Below, in pieces: positions 314 to 61,558 of a stretch of 64,000 bases of DNA (its first letter is position 1; every line of letters begins with the position of its first letter). The DNA comes from a virus, in IMG/VR virus record IMGVR_UViG_3300045988_184134. One strand, written 5' to 3'. The notes under the pieces were generated by a model. That model saw only the letters and a list, made by a program, of their open reading frames with translations. It did not search any database and was not told the DNA's origin. The position numbers and the translations under genes are program-made.

Positions 314-423
314 GCCTCTCTATCAATCAATGTTCTGTCCTCCTTGCATATAAAAAAGCAGGCTCGTAAAAGAACCTGCTTTAGTGGTCGTTAATGCACT
401 TTTTGGTTTACAATACCCAGTTT

Positions 424-450
424 ACTCAATTCGCACAAACGTGCAAGAAG
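424..450 (-). promoter_or_regulatory. promoter-like element TTGCAC-GTTTGTGCGAATTG for the HTH gene ending at 313
   Basis: -35 and spacer motif are clear; -10 is weak (TAAACT). Confidence 0.35.
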
Positions 451-3005: not shown

Positions 3006-3337
3006 CAGTAGCCCTCCTCATCGGGAATCTCATCTGCCGTCAGGTCTTCGTTGAAGTCCACGGTCAAATCAGCAACCGGCGCGTCCAGCTTTTTAAGGCC
3101 GAACGACTCATAGAAGCCATCAGGAATCTCGGCCGCATCACCCCAGTTGAAGTAGCCACTGTTGAGTCGCAGCGTCTTTTTGCCTTCTTCGGTATCCAGA
3201 TAAGACTTTACGGCGTTGCGTACTTGCGTGAGAACGTCATACGCTTTTTCAGAGTCATACTCAAACTGCAACATGGTCGTCTCGGTGCTGAATGGGCCGA
3301 TGATTTCGTTTGCTGCGATAGTAAAAATTTTAGTCAT
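3005..3337 (-). CDS. hypothetical acidic protein (110 aa)
   Basis: AAAGGAG RBS 8 nt before the ATG; first gene after leader/terminator module copy 1. Confidence 0.55.
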   Translation of the reverse strand: MTKIFTIAANEIIGPFSTETTMLQFEYDSEKAYDVLTQVRNAVKSYLDTEEGKKTLRLNSGYFNWGDAAEIPDGFYESFGLKKLDAPVADLTVDFNEDLTADEIPDEEGY

Positions 3338-3364
3338 GGTAAATACACTCCTTTGTTTTGACGC

Positions 3365-3494
3365 AAAAAGAGCGGGCCTCCCGCGTGGGAAGTCCGCTCT
3401 TCAAGCGAAATTGTGAATACGAAGGGCAAGTCGCCTTTTCGATTATGTTATCTATCGTACACTTTTATCTTACGCAATTCGCATATTTTGACAA
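3365..3494 (-). promoter_or_regulatory. module copy 1 (TTGTCA-N16-TAAGAT promoter, leader, terminator) upstream of 3005..3337
   Basis: Same P1, P2 and conserved CGTATTCACAATTTCGCTT box as copy 4; terminator AGAGCGGAC…GCCCGCTCT plus U5 at 3365..3400. Confidence 0.55.
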
Positions 3495-3666: not shown

Positions 3667-4824
3667 TTACGGCTTGCAATACCCGCAAGGTGTATAGCCC
3701 TGCTCGATTAGGTCATCGCGGGAACCTGTATAGTCTTTGCGGTTTGCATCGCTCATTTGAGCTACGGCGGAGCAGTCAGGCTTATGAAATTTCATAGAGT
3801 TTGTGTTCAGGACATAGGTACTGACCGTCGTATCCTTTTGCTGTGACTCCTCGACCTCGACTGTATCGGTGGTAGTGCTTTCTGCCGCCTGGTGATATTC
3901 GCCATAAGTGAAAGTGACGTCCTTACCGTCCGATGTGCAGTAGATGTCTCCCATCTCGTCAGTTCTGAAAACCTCAATGTCTTTGCTCTGGAGCTTTGCC
4001 AAAGTGATGTCGTGTGGATGACCATAGCTGTTGTCCTTGCCACAGGAAATAACAGCATAGGCTGGATTCACTGTGTCGAGGAATGCTTCGGATGTGGAGG
4101 TTCGAGAACCATGATGCCCTACCTTCAGAACAGTAGATTGGATGTCTTGTCCAGACTGTAGGATAACATCTTCGGCAGGCTCTTCTGCATCACCCGTAAA
4201 CAAGAATGAGGTTTCTCCATATACGATGCGTAGGACAATGGAGGTATTGTTGGTATCATCCGGCACTGAGTTCACGGCGATAACAGTCACTTCGGCATCG
4301 CCAAGGGAGAATGTATCCCCTACCGACGGAATCGTAAGGCCGTTGCCTCTTTCTTCCGCTCGCTGCTTGAAGTTCCGAAAAGCTTTACTGTCGTACTCTG
4401 TGACAGGGCAATACGTGACATCAGCCGTCACGGCTTCGAATGCACCGGAAAGACCTCCGATATGGTCTTCATGGGCGTGCGTGCCAACAACATAATCCAG
4501 ATGTCCGTCTGTCTCACGTTCCAGAACAGAATATACGAGGTCAGAATCATCAACATTGCCACCGTCAATGAGCATCGAATGCCCATCACAGGTAACAAGA
4601 GCAGAGTCCGCCTGCCCCACATCAATGAAGTGGATAGTAAAGCTGCCGTCTTCCGTTACGCCAGCCGTCTGCTCGCTGTCAGAGACAGGACTTTCTGAGA
4701 CGACCCCGGATACAGGAAGACTACCCGAATCAATCGGGGTCTGACCGCAGCCTGCGAAGCTGAGGGTGAAGAGTGCCGCAATCGCTGCCGCTGCTCTCCG
4801 CAAGAATGTGTTTTTGCTTTGCAT
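3667..4824 (-). CDS. MBL-fold metallo-hydrolase lipoprotein with C-terminal Cys/His zinc-ribbon-like tail
   Basis: Lipobox LSFAGC after the signal peptide; HAHEDHIGG (HxHxDH) metallo-beta-lactamase motif; C-terminal H-K-P-x-C…C-G-Y-C-K-P motif. Confidence 0.7.
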   Translation of the reverse strand: MQSKNTFLRRAAAAIAALFTLSFAGCGQTPIDSGSLPVSGVVSESPVSDSEQTAGVTEDGSFTIHFIDVGQADSALVTCDGHSMLIDGGNVDDSDLVYSVLERETDGHLDYVVGTHAHEDHIGGLSGAFEAVTADVTYCPVTEYDSKAFRNFKQRAEERGNGLTIPSVGDTFSLGDAEVTVIAVNSVPDDTNNTSIVLRIVYGETSFLFTGDAEEPAEDVILQSGQDIQSTVLKVGHHGSRTSTSEAFLDTVNPAYAVISCGKDNSYGHPHDITLAKLQSKDIEVFRTDEMGDIYCTSDGKDVTFTYGEYHQAAESTTTDTVEVEESQQKDTTVSTYVLNTNSMKFHKPDCSAVAQMSDANRKDYTGSRDDLIEQGYTPCGYCKP

Positions 4825-4844
4825 TGGAAATTTCTCCTTTCAAA

Positions 4845-4983
4845 TAAAAAAGAGCGGGCCTACCCCGGAATGGGATAAGTCCGCTCTTAAAACAGATTGT
4901 GAACGATAGAAAATCGTAACATCTTTATGTGTTTGGTATCTATCGCACAATCAATATTGTAGTCAATTCGAAAGGAATGGCAA
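4845..4983 (-). promoter_or_regulatory. module copy 2 (TTGCCA-N16-TACAAT promoter, leader, terminator) upstream of 3667..4824
   Basis: Divergent leader that keeps P1 (GCGATAGA…TCTATCG) and CGTTCACAATCT; terminator AGAGCGGAC…GCCCGCTCT plus U6. Confidence 0.5.
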
Positions 4984-8698: not shown

Positions 8699-8899
8699 CT
8701 ACTCAACCTGAAGCACTGCCTGCATTGAGGTGTGCTGTTTCCGCTTTGCACGTGAAACGGCATGCTGCCTGACCGCCTGGCGGATGGCTGCGTTTGTGTG
8801 TTGGATGCTGGCGGTTTCCTCACGCGAAAAGTTTTTGTCCGTATTTCCTTGAAGATTAGACTCAGTTACAGCCTTTGCAAACTTAATAGATGTCGTCAT
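8699..8899 (-). CDS. small basic protein (66 aa)
   Basis: Internal ATG at 8899 preceded by GGAGG-CAGCT; trimmed from ORF-track 8699..8935. Confidence 0.3.
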   Translation of the reverse strand: MTTSIKFAKAVTESNLQGNTDKNFSREETASIQHTNAAIRQAVRQHAVSRAKRKQHTSMQAVLQVE

Positions 8900-9683
8900 A
8901 GCTGCCTCCGATTCCGGCCCAAAGAGCTTCATCACTCAAGTCGTTGCGAGGGCACTTGATAATGCCCGCTTCTCTTAAAATTTGTCTTGCTTCCTTTGGC
9001 GTTAAGCCGTATTGCTTGGCGAGATTCGATAGAGACTGATTTGGGATAGCTCTGGCTTGTGTAATCAATCGCCTTTTCTTTTCTGTCCAATCGATTGCTA
9101 AGCTCTTGTTTTTTGGAGCTGAGAGAGCGGTTCTTTCAAGGTCTTTTTCGAGGTCTTTTTGGTATTTTTTTGCGGCCGCCTGAATGCCGCTGACCGTCAT
9201 TCCCCATTTATCAGCAATCTTTTTATAAGACATGCCACTGATGTAGTCTTCATATATTTGTTTGTTTCTGGCGTGCTTTTCCTGAACATCTTTCTGGCGA
9301 TAGAGGCGCGTCTTCGCCAAACCTTCACGCTCTTTTTGATACTTTTTCACGATTGACCGAACGCAGCTACTGGTAACGCCCCATTTCTCCGCTATTTTGA
9401 TGCAAGACGCACCACTTATAAACTCTTCATAAATTTGCTTGTTTCTGGTATGTTTTGCCTGTGCATTTTTCTGCCAGTCAAGGCGTGTCTTCGTTAAACC
9501 ATATTTGGGGTCAGAACGTAGAATTTCGACAATTCTATAGCAAGAAAGGCTATATTTGTCCGCCAACTCCAAGACACATACACCATCCATATAATCTCTG
9601 TAAATGGCGTCATTGCGTTCTTTCAAAGATTCATAGACGCCGTTATTCTTTGCCTTCATCATAGTATCGCTGCTTCTCATCAC
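8883..9683 (-). CDS. transcription regulator with four tandem HTH repeats (sigma-70 region-4 / HTH_23-like)
   Basis: Repeated units YRDYMDGVCVLELADKYSLS / YEEFISGASCIKIAEKWGVTSS / YEDYISGMSYKKIADKWGMTVS / SLSNLAKQYGLTPKEARQIL. Confidence 0.55.
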   Translation of the reverse strand: MMRSSDTMMKAKNNGVYESLKERNDAIYRDYMDGVCVLELADKYSLSCYRIVEILRSDPKYGLTKTRLDWQKNAQAKHTRNKQIYEEFISGASCIKIAEKWGVTSSCVRSIVKKYQKEREGLAKTRLYRQKDVQEKHARNKQIYEDYISGMSYKKIADKWGMTVSGIQAAAKKYQKDLEKDLERTALSAPKNKSLAIDWTEKKRRLITQARAIPNQSLSNLAKQYGLTPKEARQILREAGIIKCPRNDLSDEALWAGIGGSYDDIY

Positions 9684-12540: not shown

Positions 12541-12634
12541 AAAAGAATACCCCGGCAGGCACGCATGGTGTTCCGCCGGGGTACAATTATTTATCTTACA
12601 ATATCAATTGTAGGCAATTCGCACAGATGGTCAA
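12541..12634 (-). promoter_or_regulatory. module copy 6, short form (TTGACC-N16-TACAAT promoter, then terminator, then RBS of the helicase)
   Basis: TGTGCGAATTG spacer motif; hairpin TACCCCGGCGG…CCGCCGGGGTA plus UUCUUUUU. Confidence 0.5.
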
Positions 12635-12914
12635 GCGCTTTTTATCGTATTTTGTTTTGAGTTTTGCGAGCACAAAAACAACGTCCACCCGTGATTTACG
12701 GATGGACGTTCAATCTTACGCAGCTACATGTGCTGCTACGATGCTTTCGGACGACATGTAGTCGATACCGTCCTCGTTTCAATCTTACGCAGTCACACGG
12801 GCTGCTACGGCAAAATTACATAACAAAGAATTTTGCATATATTCAGCATTGTATATTCTGCCACTATTGGTTCTACGTTATTTTTGTTTGCTATCACCGC
12901 ATCTCTTTGCGGTT

Positions 12915-15131: not shown

Positions 15132-15390
15132 TTAACACCATCACACCTTTTGACACAATTTATTTACTACCTATATTTTCTCATAAGCAAGAAGAAATTG
15201 CGATTGTATGTTCTATTTGTTTACGGATTGTACATATTCCGGTTTGCCGCAAAAAGAAACACCCAAGCACCTGTTAAAGTGATAGGGTGTTCTCAATCTT
15301 ACGCAGCACGAAGCTGCTTCATTTTTATCTTGGCAGACGGTAACGTGTCGGTCTTCATTAGTGACGTTTTAATCTTATACTCGTTTCTTT

Positions 15391-17555: not shown

Positions 17556-17876
17556 TTAGCCTTCGATATCGAAAGTGTAGCCCTTCACGGTCATAGTGAC
17601 CAGGCCGCTGCAAGACTTGCACTTTACGCCGTCCAGGCTGACATCGAGAGTCAGGCTGGAATCTTCGTTGTCCAGCCAGCTGGGCCGCATGTAGGCAGCG
17701 AGGTCGTGCAGCGCACCGATGACGTAAGCAACCAGGTCCTCATCATCCAGAGTCTGAGCAATCACGTCGTTTTCCTTGTCAGCGGGAAAGCCGATGGAAG
17801 CGGTGATGCTGTCAAGGGTGTTGTCGCCCTTGGAACGGAAAGCGGTGGCGCTGAACTCAATCAGGTTGGTACTCAT
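17556..17876 (-). CDS. hypothetical protein (106 aa), paralogue of 18065..18385
   Basis: Shares FSATAFRS…WLDNEDSSLTLD… with the neighbouring cassette; has its own promoter and terminator. Confidence 0.5.
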   Translation of the reverse strand: MSTNLIEFSATAFRSKGDNTLDSITASIGFPADKENDVIAQTLDDEDLVAYVIGALHDLAAYMRPSWLDNEDSSLTLDVSLDGVKCKSCSGLVTMTVKGYTFDIEG

Positions 17877-18064: not shown

Positions 18065-18385
18065 TTAGTCTTCGAAATTGAAGGTGAAGCCACTTTCTTT
18101 CATAGCGACAAGGCCGCCGCGCGTCTGACATTTGTTTCTATCGAGAAAGGTTTCAAGCGTCAGGCTGGTGTCCTCATTGTCCAGCCATTTGGGGCGCAGG
18201 TCGCTGATAAGGTTGTACAGTGCTGCGACAGCATGGACAATCAGTTTCTCTTCGCCCAGCATGTTTCCAATCACTTCGTCGTCGTTCTCCACAGGGACGC
18301 TGATGGAAGCCGAGAGACTTTCGAGGTTGTTGTTGTCATCGTTGCGGAATGCGGTAGCTTCGAATTTGAGAGTACAAGTGTTCAT
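18065..18385 (-). CDS. hypothetical protein (106 aa), paralogue of 17556..17876
   Basis: AAAGGAGAA RBS before the internal Met MNTCTLKFEATAF; similar terminator to the sister cassette. Confidence 0.5.
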   Translation of the reverse strand: MNTCTLKFEATAFRNDDNNNLESLSASISVPVENDDEVIGNMLGEEKLIVHAVAALYNLISDLRPKWLDNEDTSLTLETFLDRNKCQTRGGLVAMKESGFTFNFED

Positions 18386-23403: not shown

Positions 23404-23490
23404 GAGCGGTCGAGCCGCTCTCCTCAAAACACTTATTTAGCTTACAATTTTCATTCTATGCAATTCGCACAGACACGCAAGGCAAAATGG
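23404..23490 (-). promoter_or_regulatory. module copy 7, short form (TTGCGT-N16-TAGAAT promoter, then terminator, then RBS of 22709..23371)
   Basis: TGTGCGAATTG spacer motif; hairpin GAGAGCGGCTCGACCGCTCTTTC plus U5. Confidence 0.5.
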
Positions 23491-34978: not shown

Positions 34979-35040
34979 ATTCATACTCCTTTCGCTCATC
35001 ACAACCAATGCCTGTCTTTTGTGCAGGCGCGAATACAAAC

Positions 35041-35073
35041 AAAAAAGCTGCGGAAGCAAAAGCAACCACAGCC
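35041..35073 (-). terminator. intrinsic terminator inside the flotillin leader, about 60 nt before its RBS
   Basis: Minus strand GGCTGTGGTTGCTTTTGCTTCCGCAGC plus UUUUUUG. Confidence 0.5.
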
Positions 35074-35220
35074 TTTTATATGAACCACCGGCCCAGGAAA
35101 AAGCCGATGGGGTGAATACAAGCGGAAAGCAAACATGTCAAAGTGAGAGGAAACCACGTCGTACACACCGGCAGGAAGAGGTTAAGACCCGCCGGAACCC
35201 AATTCCGCTTGTACAATTCT

Positions 35221-35260
35221 AATTCTACGCAATTCGCACAAATGCACAAGACATTATTTC
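35221..35260 (-). promoter_or_regulatory. promoter TTGTGC-N16-TAGAAT with TGTGCGAATTG spacer motif; heads the about 230-nt leader of the flotillin gene
   Basis: Sequence match; an upstream intrinsic terminator at 35271..35310 insulates it. Confidence 0.5.
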
Positions 35261-36411: not shown

Positions 36412-36825
36412 ATGCAAACCTCAATGCAGAGACTGTGTCTTTCAAACGAGCAGATTGAACGGCTTCAAGCTATCATAGAGTCAAAGCAAAACTGCAAGTG
36501 CCAGGCGGATGTATCGTTTGGCACTGTATGGATTACATCGGATGATGAACTCAATGAGCTGCGAGTCTCTTTTCTGGGTGATTTCGAGCTTGTCGTGTCC
36601 CGCGTTGGCTTTACTCATAAGCGTCGTGGTACGATGACTTCTGTTCTGGAAGAACTGAAGAAGATATGCACCGAGGTCGGCGTTCCCAGGATTGTGATAC
36701 AGTCTGTTCTGACACCTGAGATGCAGGCATTCTGCCAGGCGCATCATATTGAGCCTGACAAGAACACAACCATGCAGGTTGGTGATGTCTTGGTAGGCGA
36801 CTATTATCTTATGCTGGATACCTGA
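36412..36825 (+). CDS. GNAT-family acetyltransferase-like protein (plus strand)
   Basis: FTHKRRGTMTSVLEELKKICTEVG resembles GNAT motif A; extended -10 (TGgTATAAT) at 36381..36389. Confidence 0.45.
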   Translation: MQTSMQRLCLSNEQIERLQAIIESKQNCKCQADVSFGTVWITSDDELNELRVSFLGDFELVVSRVGFTHKRRGTMTSVLEELKKICTEVGVPRIVIQSVLTPEMQAFCQAHHIEPDKNTTMQVGDVLVGDYYLMLDT

Positions 36826-36831
36826 ACCTTT

Positions 36832-37221
36832 TCAGCATTCGAGAACTTCCGGGTCTCCATCGAAATTCTCTCCCCTGTCGAGGCGCTGCCCCACAGAGAA
36901 GTTGATGACAAGGGGGTCCTTGTCATATTCAGAATAGTCGAAGTCTTCCCTCTCACCGTCACTCAACGCTGGGTCATACTCAATTGTTGCGAGCCAAGCA
37001 TCGAACGGCATTTCATCATGGGTTGCGATGTATTTGGCGTACTGCCCAAACAGTTCGCAGCATCTGGGCCACGGCAGAGGATTGTCAAGATAAAACTCAA
37101 GCTGCCAGTCCTCATACGGAGTCAGGTCGTTCACGCCGTAACGCTGGAGCCCCTTGAGTGCTTCCTGGCCTTCCTTGCTGGTAAAGAGATAATCGTATCC
37201 GTTCATGTTCATTTCCGTCAT
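36832..37221 (-). CDS. hypothetical acidic protein (129 aa)
   Basis: Converges on the GNAT-like gene. Confidence 0.45.
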   Translation of the reverse strand: MTEMNMNGYDYLFTSKEGQEALKGLQRYGVNDLTPYEDWQLEFYLDNPLPWPRCCELFGQYAKYIATHDEMPFDAWLATIEYDPALSDGEREDFDYSEYDKDPLVINFSVGQRLDRGENFDGDPEVLEC

Positions 37222-37380
37222 CTTTTACAGGTCCTTTCTTTATTTGTGTTTCTTCCAAGTTCGTGGTGGTCGGCCGAGTCCCTGCCCCCTTTCTTTGTGG
37301 GGTCACTCTATAAAGAGATATTTTCTATAAAAATGTAAACCGCTATATACAAAAAGCCTCCAAAATTCTGGCGGCTGCTG

Positions 37381-37905
37381 TTATTTGTGATGGAGAGGTG
37401 CTGCTCCGAGTAATGCTGTCACATCAAACGACGATGCGTTATAGACTGTCAGCTGTTTCTCAAGCGCGTATTTCACAGTATAAGCTGTGCCGCCTGTCTG
37501 CTTCGTGCAGTAAGAAATGCAATAGTCTGAGCAATCGACCAGATGCCTGTCACGGGTCAAGTAAGCACTCTTGCTCGGCTCTTTACTGACATAGACGATT
37601 TTGTCCATCTTTTTGTCTAAGTTCTTAGCATGGAGCTGCTGTTCTGGAGTCCATCGGTCGCGGTAGCCTTCAAAAGGAAGCACCTCGATGATGCGCAGGC
37701 GGCCGTTTTCTTTCTTCAGCTCAATGAGCATCTCCGCTACGAGGGTATCGAATCCTAAAGCACCGCCTACTCCATAGTAGATAATTCCGCTCTGGATGAG
37801 TGGGATAAGCCGATGCCTTACTCTGGTTAGAATCTTTGTTTGCTCTCCCGGCGGGATGTTTCGATGCCCCGTAAAGCAGCATGTTTGCTTCTTAAATTTT
37901 CCCAT
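37381..37905 (-). CDS. SLOG-superfamily protein (DUF1273/YpsA-like)
   Basis: CCFTGHRN…GGALGFD pattern typical of YpsA/DprA-like SLOG Rossmann domains. Confidence 0.4.
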   Translation of the reverse strand: MGKFKKQTCCFTGHRNIPPGEQTKILTRVRHRLIPLIQSGIIYYGVGGALGFDTLVAEMLIELKKENGRLRIIEVLPFEGYRDRWTPEQQLHAKNLDKKMDKIVYVSKEPSKSAYLTRDRHLVDCSDYCISYCTKQTGGTAYTVKYALEKQLTVYNASSFDVTALLGAAPLHHK

Positions 37906-37975
37906 ACCGGCTCCTTTCTGTCAATTGGACAATTTATCATCTTTTGTCAATTCCGCTCACAAATAAAGTGACGAT

Positions 37976-38003
37976 ATTGACGAATTAGCGCAATTCCGTA
38001 TAA
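37976..38003 (+). promoter_or_regulatory. plus-strand promoter TTGACG-N16-TATAAT for the BlaI-like / XRE regulator pair
   Basis: Near-consensus hexamers; spacer contains CGAATTAGCGCAATTCCG. Confidence 0.5.
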
Positions 38004-38035
38004 TTGAAATCAGCATTACAGAATAACAATGAAAG

Positions 38036-38431
38036 TTGGTGTTTTCTATGGCAGCTTCCAGCCATGCGCCCCGTCCGTATCATCTGACTCCCGCAGAGGA
38101 AACCGTTATGAAAGCTTTCTGGAACAGCAAAAAGCCGCTGTGCCAGCAGGATATCCTTGACCATGTGAAAGAGAATGGTGACCTGTTCTGGAAAGAGCGT
38201 TCCATCTTCGCCATCATCAATTCTCTGATGAAGAAAGGCTGTATCAAGGAGGATGGGATGGTTCGCGCCGGTAAAACCTATGCCAGAACTTTTGCTCCCG
38301 CAATGAGCCGTGCAGAGTTCTATGCGGGCATGGTGACGAACGCGCTGACGAAGAAAGAGCTGGTCGAGTTCCGTCGCGCTATGCGTCAGTTAGCGAACGA
38401 AGATTCTGAATCTTCCGATGAGGAGGCTTGA
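38036..38431 (+). CDS. BlaI/MecI/CopY-family winged-helix transcriptional repressor
   Basis: LTPAEETVMKAFW…QQDILDHV…ERSIFAIINSLMKKGCIKEDGMVRAGKTYARTFAP matches the penicillinase-repressor family. Confidence 0.6.
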   Translation: MVFSMAASSHAPRPYHLTPAEETVMKAFWNSKKPLCQQDILDHVKENGDLFWKERSIFAIINSLMKKGCIKEDGMVRAGKTYARTFAPAMSRAEFYAGMVTNALTKKELVEFRRAMRQLANEDSESSDEEA

Positions 38432-38437
38432 CTTCAT

Positions 38438-38746
38438 TTGGAGGTGACTCTTATGCCGAATGCACGGATATTAGGTGCTTATATCAGGCAGAGGATGAAA
38501 GAGAAAAATCTTTCCGTAAGTGCTGTTGCCTCTATGCTTAGTTGTAGCGAGGTGGATGTGCAGAGGCTTTTATGTGGCCGGGCACTTGCTTCATACCCAC
38601 AGATGCAGCGCCTGGCGGAAGGCTTAGGTTTATCTGTGCCTGCACTGCTGCGGAATGCCTCCAGAATTGAGACAAACGCTTCCAGAGAAAAGATTCTTGA
38701 CATTATCTGGGACTACATGGATGTCCGAGATGCGGTACTATGTTGA
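38438..38746 (+). CDS. XRE-family HTH regulator
   Basis: LGAYIRQRMKEKNLSVSAVASMLSCSEVDVQRLLCG helix-turn-helix. Confidence 0.55.
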   Translation: MEVTLMPNARILGAYIRQRMKEKNLSVSAVASMLSCSEVDVQRLLCGRALASYPQMQRLAEGLGLSVPALLRNASRIETNASREKILDIIWDYMDVRDAVLC

Positions 38747-50505: not shown

Positions 50506-51708
50506 TTAAAAGAGACTCTTCTGTTCAGCGGTGTTTGCCGCTTCCATCGCTCGCGCCTCACTCTCTTTAGCAGCATCCAACTGTTTCTGCAACTGTTCAA
50601 TTTGCTTGACCAGTGCATCCTCATTGGAGTTCTTCGTGCCGCCAAATAGCTCATTGGAGATAGAGCCTTTCAGTTCATCGTTGTATGCTTCGCCGAGACT
50701 GCGAATTGCGATGTACATAGGCAGCATCGTGTTATAGAGATTGACGATAGCAGCCACAGCAAGACTTGATGTTTCATCCGCCAGGATTCGGCCATTGTCA
50801 TCAATTTTGATGTGCTCATCGTCCATCAAGGAGAAGAAATCGCCGCGCACCACTTTGCCATCTTCACCGACCTTGGTAAAGTATAAGCTCTTGGCAACAG
50901 CACGCTGAGCTTCGGTGAATTTTTGCTTCGTAATGGTACGGTCATAAGCCGGGCTATTTGCAACACCGGCATCCAACAGGGCCAGCGTGCTCAGCATTTC
51001 GGCGGAACAAGACACGCCGTAGTTAGAGAAAGAGAACCAGTCAAAATGACCAATATCTCCATCGTCATCTTCTAACATGAGGTCATTCGTTCCAGATACC
51101 AGAACTGCATTCGTCACGAGGTCAGAGAAGTTCTTCTGGTTTGTCATACCATATTGGACAAAGAATTTCTCTTGCTCAGACAAAGGCTTTTCTGCATCTG
51201 TCTTTCGGGTCATCTGAGATAATGTGTTGCAAAGACGCGAAAAGCCCATTCGGTTCTGTTCCAGATAGCTTTCAGGACTCGCAAGCAGGAAAATGGCAAA
51301 GACTGCCACATTCCCAATCTCGCTTCCATAAAGGCCAGACATACGCTTTGCCAATTTCAGCATGCCATCTTTTTCGTTTTTATAAATTTCACTGACAAGA
51401 GAAGCGACAGAGCCATATTCTTTGCCAAACAGCATTACCAACTTTGTGTATTTGGGTGCCTTATCCGCATACAGCAAATAATAAAGGACAGCTGCGATTT
51501 TTAGTCCCTCCGTGCGCTTGGCACAAGGCAGCACAGTAACGCCATAGAAATTCCCGTCTGCAATAAGTTCTTTTGCGCAGCGACGATAGCAAAGGTTGCT
51601 CTCGTATTCTTCGATGAACCGTTTGCGAGGACCGCCCGTGTGCGTCAGGTCAGCAGCGATAATGCTGCACCACATTGGGTCAAATGGGATAGATTCGTTA
51701 TATTTCAT
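50506..51708 (-). CDS. hypothetical protein (400 aa)
   Basis: Intact ORF with a C-terminal coiled coil. Confidence 0.45.
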   Translation of the reverse strand: MKYNESIPFDPMWCSIIAADLTHTGGPRKRFIEEYESNLCYRRCAKELIADGNFYGVTVLPCAKRTEGLKIAAVLYYLLYADKAPKYTKLVMLFGKEYGSVASLVSEIYKNEKDGMLKLAKRMSGLYGSEIGNVAVFAIFLLASPESYLEQNRMGFSRLCNTLSQMTRKTDAEKPLSEQEKFFVQYGMTNQKNFSDLVTNAVLVSGTNDLMLEDDDGDIGHFDWFSFSNYGVSCSAEMLSTLALLDAGVANSPAYDRTITKQKFTEAQRAVAKSLYFTKVGEDGKVVRGDFFSLMDDEHIKIDDNGRILADETSSLAVAAIVNLYNTMLPMYIAIRSLGEAYNDELKGSISNELFGGTKNSNEDALVKQIEQLQKQLDAAKESEARAMEAANTAEQKSLF

Positions 51709-51876
51709 AAAGAGTTTTCTCCTTTCAAAAGAAAAACCGCTCGGTGTAGCAACCGAACGGCAGGAATTGTGAATTATATAAAGGAATAGTATCTATGCTA
51801 CATTCATAATTGTACGCATATCGCACAGTCGTGCAATAGAAAAAGCCGCCCTCTTGAAAGAGGACGGCAGTTAATG

Positions 51877-53795: not shown

Positions 53796-53930
53796 TTTTT
53801 CGTTCTCCCTTCCAAGAGACAGTTAATTAGTGAGCAGAAAACCATATAGGCTTCTGTATCGCAAGATAGCGATTCGGTCAATTTATTCAAAACAGCACCT
53901 AAGGGCAAGGTACTGGTAGTCCGCCAAATA

Positions 53931-54112
53931 AAAAAGAGCGGGCCTCCTGACGAATCAGGAAGTCCGCTCTTGGCAGTTTGTTAAGGGTCAAAGCTCAAGC
54001 AGCCGGATTGGTTCCGGTGGACAACTTACAACATAGTAAGTTTCCAAATTGCTTGCGATAAATGGTATCCATTAACTGCTTTTTATTATAGGCAGTTCGC
54101 AAGCAGCGTCAA
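53931..54112 (-). promoter_or_regulatory. module copy 3 (TTGACG-N16-TATAAT promoter, different leader, same terminator hairpin) upstream of 53472..53795
   Basis: Terminator AGAGCGGACTTCC…GGAGGCCCGCTCT plus U6 at 53931..53970; about 130 nt more of leader before the RBS. Confidence 0.45.
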
Positions 54113-54136: not shown

Positions 54137-55318
54137 TTACTTTTTTGAGGCCTTTACACTAAAGCTGCGACTCGTTTCTCGCTGCGGAATCAGGCAGTCG
54201 TTAAAAGCCTTGGGATACAAAGCCTCCAGCTTTTTCATGTCAACGGAAGTGCGGCTCATGCGAGGCGTGTACTTGATAAGCCATGTAGTGCCATCAACGC
54301 CCGTGGCTTCGCCAGCAACATTCGCACCGAGCGCAGCAGCGAACGGGACAACCATATCCTTGCACTGCTCGTCCAGCAGCTCATACGCCTTTTTAGTGGC
54401 ATCACGTTTGGCCTTCAGGTCGCTGTACTCCTTGCACATCTGAGCAAACTCAGAGCCAAGCAGCATGGCAGGAGCCTTTTTGTTCGCATCCCCCGCGTAC
54501 TTGTGAATCGTGTCCAGCACAGCCTCCGCGTTGCCAATCGGCTCAGGCGGGTTCATAGGAAGAACATGATTCAGCCAGAAGTCATCAATTCCTTCAATGA
54601 TGCGCATTTCCTCGTCGAGGTCACGCTTAATGGTGTTAGCCACGATAGTATCGCGGTCAAACATGCAGACAACAACACATTCCCAGACACCCAGGATTGC
54701 CATATATGTGCGCACCTGATAAATGTAAGGAAGAGGGATGTTGCCGTTCTCCCATTCAGACTTCTTGAAAGAACTCGCCGTTTTGATTTCGACAAGGCAG
54801 TAGGAGCCGTCGGGTTTGCGCATCATACGGTCGATGTTGGCCGTAATATAAGGCTTGCCTGGCATGGCGTAAATGTTCGTATCCGTGATAATTTGGTTGT
54901 ACGGATAGCGCTCAGACAGCCACGCATCCACATACTCCTCGGAGATGTGGCCCCACAGCTTGTTTAATCTCGACTGGGATGTTTCCTGCTCAACGACCAG
55001 AGGCTTCTTGCCCGTCTTGGCATAGTACAGGTCAAGGTTCGTCTTATAGGCATTCGCGCCAAAGATGGCAGAAATGTCAGAGCCTCCAAGGTGAGTGGCA
55101 CGGCGGTCCTGCCACTGGGTATCCGTCAGCGTGCTGGCATCAACCTCAACTTCGGGGCCATTGTAACCATCCGGGTCACAGAACTTGATAGCTTCGGGCG
55201 AAGCCTGGCCCATTGCCTCATTGTAAAGGCTGCGGGTGTACTCCGTCCGAATTTCCCAGTACGGAAGGTGCTGAGCGCACCCCGCGCTGGATTTGTTAGT
55301 ACCGTCATAGCTTGCCAT
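54137..55318 (-). CDS. YqaJ/lambda-Exo-like 5'-3' exonuclease (PD-(D/E)xK)
   Basis: LGGSDISAIFG…, RKPDGSYCLVEIKT (D…E-x-K) and a C-terminal extension. Confidence 0.65.
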   Translation of the reverse strand: MASYDGTNKSSAGCAQHLPYWEIRTEYTRSLYNEAMGQASPEAIKFCDPDGYNGPEVEVDASTLTDTQWQDRRATHLGGSDISAIFGANAYKTNLDLYYAKTGKKPLVVEQETSQSRLNKLWGHISEEYVDAWLSERYPYNQIITDTNIYAMPGKPYITANIDRMMRKPDGSYCLVEIKTASSFKKSEWENGNIPLPYIYQVRTYMAILGVWECVVVCMFDRDTIVANTIKRDLDEEMRIIEGIDDFWLNHVLPMNPPEPIGNAEAVLDTIHKYAGDANKKAPAMLLGSEFAQMCKEYSDLKAKRDATKKAYELLDEQCKDMVVPFAAALGANVAGEATGVDGTTWLIKYTPRMSRTSVDMKKLEALYPKAFNDCLIPQRETSRSFSVKASKK

Positions 55319-55414: not shown

Positions 55415-56560
55415 TCACAGTTCCTCCTTGCCGGGCAGGTCCACATCGCTCCAGCGAACGCGGGCGCAACGTGCAACGCAATCGGCCGCAGCAAAGAGTT
55501 TCTTGGCATCCTTTGCATGATTCCGTACCACACTGCCGTACGCATCGCAAACGGACAGATAGATGTCTGCCGCCGTGACAGACGCATTGCCGAAGATAGA
55601 GTCGTAAGCTGCAAATGCTTCTGCTGCTTCAGCTTTCGGCATGCCGCCGCTCTTCAAAACGCGGACGAGAGCAGCTTTGCCGTTCTTCACCTCGATGGTT
55701 TGAAGCTTGCTGATGTCAGTGCTCGCATCATCGAAGTAGGCCAGCAGCGCGGTAAACGCATTGGTAACGCGCCCTTTGATGTCTTCGCCGATATGAGGGA
55801 TAGCAACATCCTTCGCCATAGGCACAACGATACCGCCGCCCATATCAAGGCACGGAATCAGGCGCACAGCGGACGCCGCGACATCCGAGCTAATCATTTG
55901 CACCGCAGGGCTGTATCCGCTGCAGAATTCAGCGGGCAACTTGCGGAAGAACTGGGCCTTGTACGCATCAAGACCGACTACGACGCTCATCATCTCATGG
56001 GACACATACCCGCTCACCATCTCGCGTTCGGGCCAGTTGGTCCGCATGTAGCTGTTCATAATCTCCAGCAGCTCGGCGTTGCTGATGTCGGCGTAGCGGG
56101 CAGAATGCACTGCGCGAATCTTTTCGTGGCTGAATTTGACACGAATCGAGCCCTGGCGTTCTGCCAGAATCAGGTTCAGGACTTCTTTGAGGCTGCCGCG
56201 ATTGTTCTTTCGCAGCAGTTCATAGCAGTTGAGACCAATCATGCCACGGTCGCAGATGCTCCGAATAGCGCTGTCCCCTACCGGCTTGGTTCCGATAGAA
56301 GTCGTGAGATTCAGCCCGGCATGTTCCTGTGTGTCGATGACCGCATCAGTGCTGACCTTCAGGTGCTTTGCATACTCGGGAGCGCAGAGCGGCTCATCAT
56401 AGCTTGCTTCGAAGCGAACATCACGGATGCCCTCATCGAGCCACTGGGTTTGGTTTGCATCCTCTTTGCAGAACTCAACAAGCTCATCAAGCTGGCCGAA
56501 ATCAAAGAACTTCTCGGCACCATCGAGGACGAAATTGGGGGTTTTAGCTGTGTTGGACAT
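55415..56560 (-). CDS. hypothetical protein (381 aa); candidate recombination partner of the exonuclease
   Basis: AAAAAGGAGAA-TGTAAT-ATG; directly upstream of the YqaJ-like gene; driven by module copy 4. Confidence 0.45.
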   Translation of the reverse strand: MSNTAKTPNFVLDGAEKFFDFGQLDELVEFCKEDANQTQWLDEGIRDVRFEASYDEPLCAPEYAKHLKVSTDAVIDTQEHAGLNLTTSIGTKPVGDSAIRSICDRGMIGLNCYELLRKNNRGSLKEVLNLILAERQGSIRVKFSHEKIRAVHSARYADISNAELLEIMNSYMRTNWPEREMVSGYVSHEMMSVVVGLDAYKAQFFRKLPAEFCSGYSPAVQMISSDVAASAVRLIPCLDMGGGIVVPMAKDVAIPHIGEDIKGRVTNAFTALLAYFDDASTDISKLQTIEVKNGKAALVRVLKSGGMPKAEAAEAFAAYDSIFGNASVTAADIYLSVCDAYGSVVRNHAKDAKKLFAAADCVARCARVRWSDVDLPGKEEL

Positions 56561-56584
56561 ATTACATTCTCCTTTTTTAGACGC

Positions 56585-56719
56585 AAAAAGGCGGACCCCC
56601 GAAAATTTCGGAAGGTCCGCCTAAAAGCGAAATTGTGAATACGAAGGGCGCTTTGCCTTTTCGATAACTGTTATCTATCGTACAACTACCATTGTATTCA
56701 CTTCGCACAGCTGTGCAAG
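56585..56719 (-). promoter_or_regulatory. module copy 4: promoter (TTGCAC-N17-TACAAT), conserved structured leader, intrinsic terminator, then RBS of 55415..56560
   Basis: On the minus strand: TTGCACAGCTGTGCGAAGTGAATACAAT; P1 CGATAGATAAC…ATCG; P2 AAGGC-AAAGC-GCCCTT; box CGTATTCACAATTTCGCTT; hairpin GGCGGACC…GGTCCGCC plus U5; AAAAAGGAGAA; ATG. Confidence 0.55.
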
Positions 56720-60428: not shown

Positions 60429-61331
60429 TTAGAGGTTGTACTGTCCCGCAATCAGGCGAGCGGCAGCCTGAATCGGTTTACCGTTGTACTGAGGCCGCAG
60501 GAAGTAGGTGATGGCCCCACCGTTACCGGAGTCCATCATTTCCTTCATGGTCTGCCCAGCAAAACGACCAGCCATAACTTTGAACGCCAGAGCTTTTTCA
60601 AGCGTCATAGGCTCATTGTCGGGAGTCGGATTTGCAGCCGGGACAGGCGGAACAGGGAAAGTGTTCTGAACAGGCGCAGCGACAGGCTTTACAGGTTCAT
60701 CCACTTTTTCTTCAACCTGAGTCGGAGCCGCTTTCGGTGCAGCTTTTTTGACGGTCTTCTTTGCAGCAGGTACATCAGTCTTGGGGTCGGTCTCTTTTTC
60801 CTTCTCCTTGACCTTGTCCTGAAGCTGCTGCGGCACAGGTGGCACCGGGAAATTCGTCAAAACGCCGCCGTCAACGGGGGCATCCGGCAAATCGGCCGTT
60901 GTCTTGTACACGGTAGTGACATCTTCGATGTACTCAGCGTCCGCCGGGGTGCCAAATCCGCAGTTGCCGAGGGCTTTGCGAATCGCGGCCGTACCGGCGT
61001 TCTGGATGTAGTCCTTGCCGAACTGGTCATCGCTGTGATAGCGGGTGGCGAAAGCGTTCGCCAAAAGGTTGCCATTTTCGTCGATGACGCGGCCCTCGAC
61101 CGTTGCCATCTGGTCATTGGCCCGATAGACAATCTGTTCCAAGCGCCCGCCGGGGTGCTTCAGTCGGAACCACAGCATAGCAGGCTCTGCCTGGAGATAC
61201 ATGCGGTTGTTACCTTCCGCATCCTGAAAGCAGGACGTTACCAGGCGGGGGTCAAAACCATCTACTGCATTGACATTAGCCATTGCCGTGAGAGTCTTCT
61301 TCTGGGCATCTTTGATTGTTTCTTTGGTCAT
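60429..61331 (-). CDS. possible Rad52/Sak-like single-strand annealing protein with Pro/Lys-rich linker
   Basis: …GRVIDENGNLLANAFATRY…QNAGTAAIRKALGNCGFG resembles the Rad52 …[20 protein letters not shown] region; weak. Confidence 0.4.
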   Translation of the reverse strand: MTKETIKDAQKKTLTAMANVNAVDGFDPRLVTSCFQDAEGNNRMYLQAEPAMLWFRLKHPGGRLEQIVYRANDQMATVEGRVIDENGNLLANAFATRYHSDDQFGKDYIQNAGTAAIRKALGNCGFGTPADAEYIEDVTTVYKTTADLPDAPVDGGVLTNFPVPPVPQQLQDKVKEKEKETDPKTDVPAAKKTVKKAAPKAAPTQVEEKVDEPVKPVAAPVQNTFPVPPVPAANPTPDNEPMTLEKALAFKVMAGRFAGQTMKEMMDSGNGGAITYFLRPQYNGKPIQAAARLIAGQYNL

Positions 61332-61370
61332 TTCGATTTACTCCTTTTGTTTTTTTGTTGGTTACAAATA

Positions 61371-61505
61371 CAAAAAGAGCGAACCTCCCATAATAGGAAG
61401 TCTGCTCTTTAAGCGAAATTGTGAATACGCAGGGCTTTCGCCTTTTCGATTGTTATGGTATCTATCGTACAACTATCATTGTATCCACTTCGCACAAATG
61501 TGCAA
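61371..61505 (-). promoter_or_regulatory. module copy 5 (TTGCAC-N16-TACAAT promoter, leader, terminator) upstream of 60429..61331
   Basis: P1; P2 with a GAAA loop (AAGGC-GAAA-GCCCTG); conserved box; terminator AGAGCAGAC…GTTCGCTCT plus U5. Confidence 0.55.
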
Positions 61506-61558
61506 GCAACCTATGACACAAAAAATGCCGCCTACCCGAAGGCAGACGGCAAATGGTA

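What the first reader, a model, noticed from the sequence alone, without database searches (positions are those of the whole stretch)
56585..56719. Multi-copy promoter, structured leader and intrinsic terminator module directly in front of gene RBSs: candidate nut/put- or Q-type antitermination element, or an sRNA family
At least seven intergenic regions (3365-3494, 4845-4983, 12541-12634, 23404-23490, 53931-54112, 56585-56719, 61371-61505) share one unusual architecture on the coding (minus) strand: a near-consensus sigma-A promoter (TTGaca-N16/17-TAcAAT), a short transcribed leader, a strong Rho-independent terminator (14-bp GC-rich stem plus U5-6), and 10-25 nt later the AGGAG RBS and start codon of the next gene. 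If the promoters are real, every transcript should stop before the gene unless termination is suppressed. Four copies (3365, 4845, 56585, 61371) share a conserved leader of about 80 nt. It contains a helix P1 (CGATAGA…ATCG) with variable loop length and a small hairpin P2 (AAGGC-loop-GCCCTT). The P2 loop covaries and is GNRA-like (GAAA in copy 5), which recalls lambda boxB. A conserved linear box CGTATTCACAATTTCGCTT follows, which recalls boxA. The terminator hairpin sequence itself, AGAGCGGAC…GCCCGCTCT, is also conserved. Conserved sequence with covarying stems argues for a functional RNA rather than ordinary terminators. The genes served are diverse: helicase, the Rad52-like protein, the MBL lipoprotein, and the partner of the YqaJ exonuclease. 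I cannot assign the element to any named family from memory.
Basis: partly seen in the sequence, partly recalled or inferred. Interest (0 to 1): 0.85.

Follow-up and report, generated by a model that had tools for sequence, protein, structure and literature searches.

The report
Multi-copy promoter–leader–terminator switch in gut phage
A large uncultured human-gut mobile element (filed as a virus in IMG/VR) starts many of its operons with the same unit: a phage-type promoter, a conserved folded RNA of about 100 nt, and a strong terminator just before the first gene. This looks like a new, genome-wide device for controlling transcriptional read-through.

Summary
The window holds four full copies, at 3359-3494, 4840-4983, 56579-56718 and 61366-61505 on the minus strand. 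At least five simpler promoter-then-terminator units use the same promoter family.

A covariance model found 365 copies (208 distinct) in 2 Mb of related contigs, up to about nine per 15 kb. Exact-pattern scans found the element in many human-gut metagenomes and in only one GTDB genome. Rfam has no match.

Each copy sits at a fixed distance from a conserved sigma-A-type promoter. The RNA starts inside a closing helix (GUACGA/UCGUAC) around a roughly 48-nt domain. A conserved box (AUUCAYAAUUUCGC) follows, then a covarying GC-rich terminator. The start codon lies a median 22 nt beyond the modelled element.

43% of copies also have a strong terminator just upstream of the promoter. For those, the operon can only be transcribed by reading through the leader terminator.

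My best reading is a cis-acting attenuation/antitermination leader controlled by a factor specific to this clade. The box can pair with the terminator's 5' arm, and the early transcribed region carries a -10-like TACGAT, as at Q/AlpA-type promoters. The boxA/boxB analogy is not supported. The mechanism and the factor are unproven.

The parts
56713..56718 (-). -35 hexamer TTGCAC of the focal copy
   Evidence: Read. It lies 16 nt from the -10. The family appears.
56699..56709 (-). Conserved promoter-spacer motif TGTGCGAAGTG (family consensus TGTGCGAAYTG)
   Evidence: (repeat families D1-D4) and 32: 17 family promoters in the window, all on the minus strand.
56691..56696 (-). -10 hexamer TACAAT
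   Evidence: In 169 of 186 distinct leaders a TAnnnT hexamer ends 5 nt (154 copies) or 4 nt (15 copies) before the start of the model.
56677..56682 (-). -10-like hexamer TACGAT in the early transcribed region, starting 9 nt after the -10
   Evidence: TAnnnT at this offset in 78% of 181 terminator-bearing family promoters, against 2% of 85 terminator-less ones.
56639..56683 (-). 5' leader domain. Helix P0 (GUACGA 56683-56678 with UCGUAU 56644-56639) encloses the conserved GAUAGAUAAC and one or two small hairpins. The predicted start is G56683.
   Evidence: folds. P0 is 98% paired but nearly invariant. P0 closes the minimum-energy fold in 166 of 181 distinct copies.
56625..56640 (-). Box2, AUUCACAAUUUCGCUU. 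It is single-stranded in the terminated RNA. Its 3' half (AAUUUCGC) is complementary to the terminator's 5' arm.
   Evidence: conservation; 91.9% paired against 20-49% when slid; three-way covariation.
56590..56621 (-). Terminator hairpin GGCGGACCUUCCG...CGGGGGUCCGCC
   Evidence: Stem covariation across the family is shown (6 of 9 upper-stem pairs have changes on both sides).
56581..56589 (-). U tract (56589-56585) followed by the conserved GCGU. The GCG can pair with the CGC of box2 in read-through RNA.
   Evidence: helix 2, 89% paired, all 3 pairs with changes on both sides. (folds of read-through RNA).
55415..56574 (-). Ribosome-binding site AAGGAG (56574-56569), ATG (56560-56558) and a 381-aa gene with no family match. 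A YqaJ/RecE-like exonuclease gene (54137-55318) follows.
3359..3494 (-). Full copy in front of the 110-aa gene 3005-3337
   Evidence: 90.8 bits, E = 4e-16.
4840..4983 (-). Variant copy in front of the metallo-beta-lactamase-fold gene 3667-4824. Its closing helix is shifted and longer (UGCGAUAGA/UCUAUCG).
   Evidence: (53.9 bits).
61366..61505 (-). Full copy in front of the 300-aa gene 60429-61331. A separate strong terminator precedes it at 61526-61551.
   Evidence: 79.3 bits.
53928..54112 (-). Related unit: family promoter, a longer and different leader, and a family-type terminator AGAGCGGACUUCC...
   Evidence: 28-31 bits.
51731..51840 (-). Degenerate unit (AUGUAGCAUAGAUAC...AUUCACAAUUCC plus a different terminator) in front of gene 50506-51708. 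A terminator precedes it at 51845-51868.
   Evidence: (15.5 bits).
12541..12634 (-). Short unit: family promoter, about 25 nt starting UUGUAAGAUAAAUA, then a terminator, in front of the UvrD-like helicase gene
23404..23484 (-). Short unit: family promoter, a short leader (UUGUAAGCUAAAUA), then a terminator
355..450 (-). Short unit in front of a tandem-HTH (Mor-like) gene that runs off the end of the window

Best explanation
The element is a cis-acting transcription-attenuation leader, fused to a clade-specific promoter, that gates entry of RNA polymerase into the downstream operon.

Proposed sequence of events:
1. Host sigma-A polymerase starts about 8 nt after the -10. This is inferred.
2. 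The first nucleotides (GUACGA) pair with UCGUAC about 40 nt later and close a compact 5' domain.
3. The polymerase then transcribes a conserved box (AUUCAYAAUUUCGC) and a strong intrinsic terminator. By default it stops and releases an RNA of about 100 nt.
4. The operon, whose ribosome-binding site lies only 10-40 nt further on, is expressed only when the terminator is bypassed.

I propose that a factor encoded by the element prevents the lower terminator stem from forming. The factor is probably a protein and has not been identified. It would do this by stabilising the weak alternative hairpin between the box (AAUUUCGC) and the terminator's 5' arm (GCGGACUU). This works like BglG/LicT acting on RAT sites, copy by copy.

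What is shown: the family and its copy number, the fixed coupling to the promoter, the folds, the position before genes, and the bracketing terminators.

What is inferred: the start site, termination in vivo, regulated read-through, the antiterminator hairpin, and the existence of the factor.
For: - 365 model hits (208 distinct) in 2 Mb of related DNA, with up to about nine copies per 11-15 kb.
- 169 of 186 distinct copies have the promoter at a fixed offset of 4-5 nt. The start codon lies a median 22 nt after the element.
- 83 of 195 copies have an equally strong terminator (median -17.9 kcal/mol, against -18.8 for the leader terminators) within 75 nt upstream of the -35. Read-through is then the only route into the operon, and operon-end terminators appear to be meant to work.
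- The box and the terminator's 5' arm are 91.9% complementary, against 20-49% in slid controls.
- One position shows three-way covariation between box, 5' arm and 3' arm: C-G-C 109, U-A-U 32, U-G-C 16 of 208. This would also explain why the 5' arm keeps its sequence while the 3' arm tolerates C/U changes.
- The alternative hairpin appears in the minimum-energy fold of truncated transcripts for two of the four window copies (3365 and 4845) and in ten examples printed at random. That call's automatic count scored it in 82 of 190 copies, and I judged the count unreliable.
This points to a factor of the element's own rather than a host metabolite or host protein.
- No Rfam family matches.
Against: - The alternative hairpin is weak. 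Truncated transcripts fold no better than shuffled sequence in three of the four window copies (z about 0). In the focal copy only five contiguous pairs form.
- Its support is mostly conserved complementarity, with a single covarying pair, and I derived the pairing from these same sequences.
- The same CGC can instead pair with GCG after the U tract.
- The model does not explain why the 5' domain and GAUAGAUAMC are so conserved.
- It does not cover the short units (12623, 23469, 435), which lack the box.
- No RNA-binding antiterminator family was found among the 85 window proteins scanned.
- No expression data exist.
Confidence: 0.4

Rival explanations
1. Processive antitermination loaded at the promoter, either Q/AlpA-like or put-like. 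In the Q/AlpA version, a DNA-binding factor recognises the conserved spacer element, engages the polymerase at a sigma-dependent pause caused by the -10-like TACGAT, and makes it resistant to terminators. In the put-like version, the roughly 48-nt 5' RNA domain does this itself.
For: All three cis features of Q/AlpA promoters, as listed in PMC9371919, are present:
- a conserved element between -35 and -10;
- a -10-like nACGAT in the early transcribed region at a fixed offset, in 78% of terminator-bearing promoters against 2% of terminator-less ones.
- an intrinsic terminator about 100 nt downstream.
The short units without the box keep a TAAGAT or TAAGCT at the same offset. HK022 putL is also a roughly 70-nt folded RNA directly after its promoter and carries a -10-like sequence (PMC9378689). 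A clade-restricted protein with four tandem Mor-type HTH repeats is encoded at 8883-9683.
Against: - The spacer motif is also present in the seven window promoters that have no terminator, so it is not specific to antitermination.
- The statistic is dominated by one leader family and comes from loci fetched by that family's own pattern.
- Strong terminators at operon ends just upstream of 43% of units would be pointless if polymerases were made terminator-proof.
- No Q, N or NusG-like family was found. The PF06530 hit has E = 0.005, is below threshold, and lies on a generic HTH.
- TACGAT is also part of helix P0, so its conservation may be due to the RNA.
Confidence: 0.27
2. Constitutive design without a switch. 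The terminator is simply leaky and sets a low, fixed level of expression and insulation for each operon. The 5' stem protects the RNA from 5'-end-dependent decay. The extended hairpin of read-through RNA (terminator, paired A/U tract and CGC/GCG clamp) is a processing site, for example for RNase III.
For: - The 5' end lies inside a helix in 166 of 181 copies.
- Read-through RNA folds into a duplex of about 20 bp with the CGC/GCG clamp.
- No regulator was identified.
- Short units show that a promoter followed by a terminator is used without the elaborate leader.
Against: - The leader terminators are as strong as the operon-end terminators and have U tracts of 5-7, which makes a poor leaky design.
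- It does not explain the tight sequence conservation of box2 and GAUAGAUAMC across 208 variants whose flanks are unrelated.
Confidence: 0.15
3. A family of abundant trans-acting small RNAs, acting as regulators or as decoys for a host factor. Downstream genes would be expressed incidentally by read-through.
For: Each copy has its own promoter and terminator, and often a terminator upstream, so it is a self-contained unit of about 100 nt. The layout is a 5' stem domain, a single-stranded conserved box and a terminator hairpin. The high copy number would give a high dose.
Against: - Every one of about 186 distinct copies is on the coding strand, and in 173 a ribosome-binding site and start codon were found 11-60 nt after the element. 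The downstream operon has no room for a promoter of its own.
- No sequence complementary to the box exists in the 64-kb window at up to 3 mismatches.
- The short units would give RNAs made of little more than the terminator.
Confidence: 0.1
4. A selfish or recombinogenic repeat that spreads or shuffles gene cassettes and has no regulatory role of its own.
For: Identical leaders are followed by different genes in different contigs (for example L215 and L220). This shows recombination at or near the units.
Against: - Orientation is strict, the spacing to promoter and ribosome-binding site is fixed, and there are no terminal inverted repeats or target duplications.
- The terminator stem shows compensatory changes, and the family is maintained across divergent contigs.
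Confidence: 0.05

Closest known systems
Lambdoid PR'-6S RNA-tR' with Q, and Pseudomonas AlpA/PalpB
   Same: A constitutive-looking promoter with a conserved element between -35 and -10, a -10-like nACGAT just after the start, a short terminated leader RNA, and genes that need read-through.
   Different: Here there are dozens of units per genome rather than one. The host is Firmicutes-like. The leader RNA has a conserved fold and box. The spacer element also occurs at promoters without terminators. No Q or AlpA homologue was found.
HK022 put RNA
   Same: A folded RNA of 50-70 nt directly downstream of the promoter that could act on the polymerase that made it. putL also contains a -10-like sequence.
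   Different: There is no detectable sequence similarity. The terminator follows immediately. Each genome has many copies, with functional-looking terminators between units. Independence from protein factors is untested.
BglG/SacY/LicT RAT-terminator attenuators
   Same: Several copies per genome of a conserved sequence that can form a weak hairpin overlapping the 5' arm of a strong terminator. This implies stabilisation by a protein.
   Different: The sequence and shape differ. There is an extra promoter-coupled 5' domain. No CAT/PRD protein is present in the window. The element sits on a phage-like element rather than in sugar operons.
conAn bipartite antitermination of Gram-positive conjugative elements (pLS20; PMC8191782)
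   Same: A mobile element of a Gram-positive host that uses a 5' leader RNA plus its own protein to pass terminators.
   Different: From my own memory (only the abstract was seen here), conAn works from a single long leader at the start of one large operon and is processive. Here short units are repeated in front of many small operons.
Type III toxin-antitoxin loci (ToxIN)
   Same: The order is promoter, non-coding RNA, terminator, then a gene with its ribosome-binding site right after.
   Different: The RNA contains no tandem repeats. The downstream genes are diverse and are not ToxN-like.

Membership tests
Lambda N / nut site | boxA linear element (CGCUCUUA-like) that is conserved | tested here: not met
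   The conserved core is AUUCAYAAUYU(C)GC. The CGCUU(N)AA part varies (CUGCAAACAG, CGCUGAGG) and behaves as pairing sequence.
Lambda N / nut site | boxB hairpin with a conserved GNRA-like loop | tested here: not met
   P2 loops differ in length and sequence between copies (GAAA, AAAGCG, UUUUAU, CUAUU...).
Lambda N / nut site | Small arginine-rich N protein | tested here: inconclusive
   No Pfam hit and no obvious arginine-rich small protein in the window. Related contigs reach 100-390 kb, so much of the element probably lies outside the 64-kb window.
Q / AlpA-type antitermination | Factor-binding element between -35 and -10 | tested here: inconclusive
   A conserved TGTGCGAAYTG lies in the spacer, but it is also present at promoters without terminators.
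Q / AlpA-type antitermination | -10-like element in the early transcribed region | tested here: met
   TACGAT starts 9 nt after the -10. TAnnnT occurs at that offset in 78% of terminator-bearing promoters against 2% of terminator-less ones. Pausing itself is untested.
Q / AlpA-type antitermination | Intrinsic terminator downstream of the promoter, before the genes | tested here: met
   (median 101 nt from the -10 to the U tract).
Q / AlpA-type antitermination | Q or AlpA homologue | tested here: not met
   The only hit is a sub-threshold PF06530 match (E = 0.005, 17 bits against a cut-off of 26) on an HTH of the 266-aa protein.
HK022 put RNA | Two-stem RNA directly after the promoter that acts without protein | not testable with these tools
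   A closed 48-nt domain with 1-2 hairpins is present. No similarity search against put was possible beyond Rfam, which gave no hit.
BglG/LicT RAT attenuators | Conserved hairpin overlapping the terminator's 5' arm | tested here: inconclusive
   91.9% paired against 20-49% when slid, with one covarying pair. The hairpin is energetically weak.
BglG/LicT RAT attenuators | CAT RNA-binding and PRD protein | tested here: not met
   No CAT_RBD or PRD hit among the 85 window proteins scanned.
Any Rfam family | Score at or above the gathering threshold | tested here: not met
   0 hits at the gathering threshold over the window. The E-value scan gave only chance-level hits.
Trans-acting sRNA gene | Own promoter and terminator, and a target elsewhere | tested here: inconclusive
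   A promoter and terminator are present. No complementary site was found in the window. Host targets cannot be tested.

The most novel reading that the evidence does not exclude
A prevalent human-gut large phage or mobile element runs most of its non-structural operons through one regulon of promoter-fused leader RNAs. These would be switched on by a so far unknown antiterminator encoded by the element, or by the leader RNA itself acting on Firmicutes RNA polymerase as put does. That would be a new RNA family together with a new antitermination factor class, used tens of times per genome.
Probability: 0.35. Interest if true: 0.8.

Novelty: new variant of a known kind. Interest (0 to 1): 0.62.

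Why it matters
If the unit is a switch, it would be the first case I know of where a phage-like element controls dozens of operons with one repeated promoter-leader-terminator cassette. Known systems use one or two nut, put or qut sites.

It would give a defined RNA of about 100 nt and a defined promoter motif to fish for a new antiterminator in Firmicutes. It would offer a way to read early and delayed gene classes directly from the sequence of an uncultured gut element with contigs of 100-370 kb. It would also provide a compact, portable terminator-gating part.

The family is also an unannotated structured RNA that belongs in RNA family databases.

Tried and rejected
- Rfam at the gathering threshold over the whole window, and at E-value threshold over the focal region: nothing meaningful.
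- tRNA and tmRNA scan: none.
- Megablast of 14-24 kb against isolate phages and plasmids: no match.
- tblastn with the helicase and the HTH protein: only distant or no hits. No cultured relative is available.
- boxA/boxB reading: rejected.
- Classical riboswitch with a strong antiterminator: no long complement to the terminator arm exists, only the weak 8-position box/arm pairing.
- Leader peptide: there is no ribosome-binding site or start codon inside the leader (from reading the sequence).
- Trans target of the box in the window: none at up to 3 mismatches.
- Search for N, Q, NusG, CAT, ANTAR, HutP or TRAP-type proteins by Pfam over 85 window proteins: none.
- First genes behind terminator-less promoters were clustered to look for an early regulator. 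They are mostly small acidic proteins plus a tandem-HTH protein, and no recognisable antiterminator.
- RNAalifold on a plain MAFFT alignment missed P0 because of gap placement. I replaced it with a hand-specified model.
- My first promoter and terminator classification was faulty, because AAGG inside the leader was taken as a ribosome-binding site. It was redone.
- Structure prediction of the HTH protein was considered and not run. A repeat protein of Mor-type HTHs would not settle the mechanism.
- Literature searches found no description of this element.

Full report
**What is in the window**

On the minus strand, 56720-56558 reads as follows:
- a -35 hexamer TTGCAC, a 16-nt spacer containing TGTGCGAAGTG, and a -10 hexamer TACAAT;
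- eight nt later, TACGATAGATAAC;
- two small hairpins, then TCGTAT;
- the box ATTCACAATTTCGCTT;
- a GC-rich hairpin of 13-14 bp, then TTTTT and GCGT;
- AAGGAG, then the ATG of a 381-aa gene.

The same layout is found at 3359-3494, 4840-4983 and 61366-61505. The 19-nt box occurs three times exactly, with none expected.

A repeat search and a motif scan show that the promoter belongs to a family of 17 copies. All are on the minus strand, none on the plus strand. At least nine of the 17, ten if 35238 is counted, are followed by an intrinsic terminator before the next ribosome-binding site: 61494, 56707, 54101, 51825, 35238, 23469, 12623, 4972, 3483 and 435. The remaining promoters run straight into a gene; 36232 was not resolved.

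**Where it comes from**

Neither isolate phages nor plasmids match at the DNA level. Protein searches give only remote hits.

Exact-pattern scans find the promoter motif and the leader in IMG/VR contigs of 30-390 kb. Among 185,579 GTDB species genomes it occurs only in one metagenome-assembled 'Clostridiales bacterium'.

The window itself encodes replication, recombination and accessory functions: a UvrD-like helicase, a YqaJ/RecE-like exonuclease, a primase, a Y-family polymerase, a sortase, a signal peptidase, SPFH proteins, phosphoesterases and Mor-type HTH proteins. It has no clear virion genes. I therefore call it a large phage-like mobile element of a Firmicutes-type host. GC content is 48% and the ribosome-binding sites are AGGAG.

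**The family**

I built a covariance model from 26 representatives that are less than 90% identical.
- In the window it finds four strong copies and two weak ones.
- In 2.05 Mb of fetched loci plus the window it finds 55 + 189 + 121 hits. The stored alignments hold 326 of them, 208 distinct.
- Copies are dense. Loci L207, L235, L210 and L046 carry six to nine copies in 11-15 kb, each at the head of an operon of one to seven genes.
- Of 186 distinct copies, 169 have a TAnnnT -10 and the CGA motif at a fixed offset: 5 nt in 154 copies and 4 nt in 15. The other 17 have visibly variant promoters.
- A ribosome-binding site and start codon follow the element by a median of 22 nt, range 11-60.
- Identical leaders precede different genes in different contigs, so recombination happens at the units.

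**RNA structure**

- The first transcribed nucleotides GUACGA pair with UCGUAC about 40 nt downstream (helix P0). This helix is 98% paired across 104 distinct rows but almost invariant. It closes the minimum-energy fold of the 5' domain (median 48 nt) in 166 of 181 distinct copies.
- A few diverged copies keep P0 through changes on both sides: L121 has UGUACAA/UUGUACA, L093 has UGCAUGA/UUAUGCA, and window copy 4845 has UGCGAUAGA/UCUAUCG.
- The interior is variable. The conserved GAUAGAUAMC pairs in different ways in different subfamilies (UAGAU/AUCUA, GAUA/UAUC, and UGGAU/AUCCA in L215). Its conservation is therefore not explained by one helix.
- The terminator stem covaries strongly. Six of nine upper-stem pairs have changes on both sides.
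- A CGC in the box can pair with the conserved GCG after the U tract: 89% paired, with all three pairs changing on both sides. In read-through RNA this gives a duplex of about 20 bp.

**A possible antiterminator**

The 3' half of the box, AAUUUCGC(U), is complementary to the conserved 5' arm of the terminator, (A)GCGGACUU.
- On the model-fitted alignment the seven pairs are 91.9% paired, against 20-49% when the partner is slid by 1-3 columns.
- One position shows three-way covariation between box, 5' arm and 3' arm: C-G-C in 109, U-A-U in 32 and U-G-C in 16 of 208 distinct sequences. That is the pattern expected of mutually exclusive helices.
- It would explain why the 5' arm keeps its sequence while its partner varies between C and U.
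- The hairpin is weak. Truncated transcripts fold no better than shuffles in three of the four window copies. I derived the pairing from these sequences, so I treat it as suggestive only. If it is real, it would need a stabilising factor.

**Why a cis-regulatory reading**

The downstream operon has no room for a promoter of its own. In 83 of 195 distinct loci a hairpin-plus-U-run terminator as strong as the leader terminator lies within 75 nt upstream of the -35 (median -17.9 against -18.8 kcal/mol). Window examples are 61551-61526 and 51868-51845. There the unit's own promoter is the only source of transcripts, and they meet a strong terminator after about 100 nt. Expression therefore requires terminator bypass.

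The presence of working-looking terminators at operon ends argues for local bypass at each unit rather than bypass that persists along the genome. This is an inference, not a test.

**The Q/AlpA-like alternative**

Q-type systems need three things: a binding element in the promoter, a -10-like sequence in the early transcribed region, and a downstream terminator (PMC9371919). All three are present here.
- TACGAT starts 9 nt after the -10.
- TAnnnT occurs at that offset in 78% of 181 terminator-bearing family promoters, against 2% of 85 terminator-less ones.
- The short units at 12623 and 23469 keep TAAGAT and TAAGCT at the same place.

There are caveats. The sample is dominated by one leader family and was partly fetched with that family's pattern. 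The hexamer is also part of P0. The spacer motif is also present at terminator-less promoters. No Q or AlpA homologue was found. The 266-aa protein at 8883-9683 consists of four Mor-type HTH repeats and is restricted to this clade. It gives only a sub-threshold PF06530 match.

HK022 put is a functional analogue of the 5' domain: about 70 nt, two stems, directly after PL, with a -10-like sequence inside (PMC9378689). No homology could be tested.

**What was not supported**

The boxA/boxB reading fails, because P2 loops are variable and the 'box' divides into a P0 strand and a pairing segment. A trans-acting sRNA is disfavoured by the invariable placement before a ribosome-binding site and by the lack of any complementary site in the window. 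It is not excluded. A selfish repeat is unlikely given the strict orientation, the fixed spacing and the compensatory changes.

**Verdict**

It most likely gates read-through into operons. I put about 0.4 on local, factor-dependent antitermination, about 0.27 on processive Q/AlpA- or put-like loading, and the rest on constitutive or trans-acting readings. The kind of device is known. The family, its promoter coupling and its use tens of times per genome are new.

Noticed in passing
window 12709-12809 (minus strand), and about 15292-15320: CRISPR-like repeats. Two 32-33-nt repeats, CGTAGCAGC-N7-CTGCGTAAGATTGAA(A)C, are separated by a 35-nt spacer (12741-12775) and followed by a terminator. A third, solitary repeat (GAAGCAGCTTCGTGCTGCGTAAGATTGAG) is also followed by a terminator. 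The GCAGC/GCTGC stem and the ...ATTGAAAC end, from my memory of published repeats, resemble type I-C-like repeats. This could be a mini-array plus a solitary repeat unit carried by the element (an RNA anti-CRISPR?). The spacer matched only the same element in IMG/VR.
   Followed up: partly
window 35020-35250 (minus strand); relatives L028, L034, L058: A second, unrelated long leader sits behind a family promoter. It starts UUGUACAAGCGGAA and pairs about 95 nt later with UUCCGCUUGUA, enclosing a GC-rich domain. Further hairpins and a terminator follow before the gene at 34978. It is conserved in relatives and could be another structured leader family.
   Followed up: no
window 8883-9683 (minus strand); P0001-P0009: The 266-aa basic protein is built of tandem Mor-type HTH repeats. 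The window version and P0001 carry one extra 60-aa repeat compared with the 198-206-aa relatives. Only nine protein clusters exist in the 5.8-billion-sequence database. A shorter tandem-HTH paralogue runs off the window at 1-313 and lies behind a family promoter in relatives.
   Followed up: partly
window 18065-18385 and 17556-17876 (minus strand): Two paralogous acidic 106-aa proteins (pI 4.1-4.4), each behind its own terminator-less family promoter (18449, 17939). They look like immediate-early host-takeover genes, and the same family recurs in relatives.
   Followed up: no
window 56713-56702, 61500-61489, 435 region: In promoters whose -35 is TTGCAC, the -35 and the spacer motif form an imperfect dyad (GCACAGCTGTGC, GCACA-TT-TGTGC). 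This would suit a dimeric DNA-binding protein. Promoters with TTGACG or TTGCCA lack the left half.
   Followed up: no
loci L244, L275, L308, L314, L318 (metagenome contigs): The leader occurs on human-gut contigs of 250-371 kb, and several cluster near 250-270 kb. The element may therefore be much larger than the roughly 100-135 kb suggested by the closest IMG/VR contigs.
   Followed up: no
window 36412-38746 (plus strand): This is the only stretch with plausible plus-strand ORFs (137, about 107-131 and 102 aa) in an otherwise single-strand gene layout. Neighbouring minus-strand ORFs lack ribosome-binding sites.
   Followed up: no
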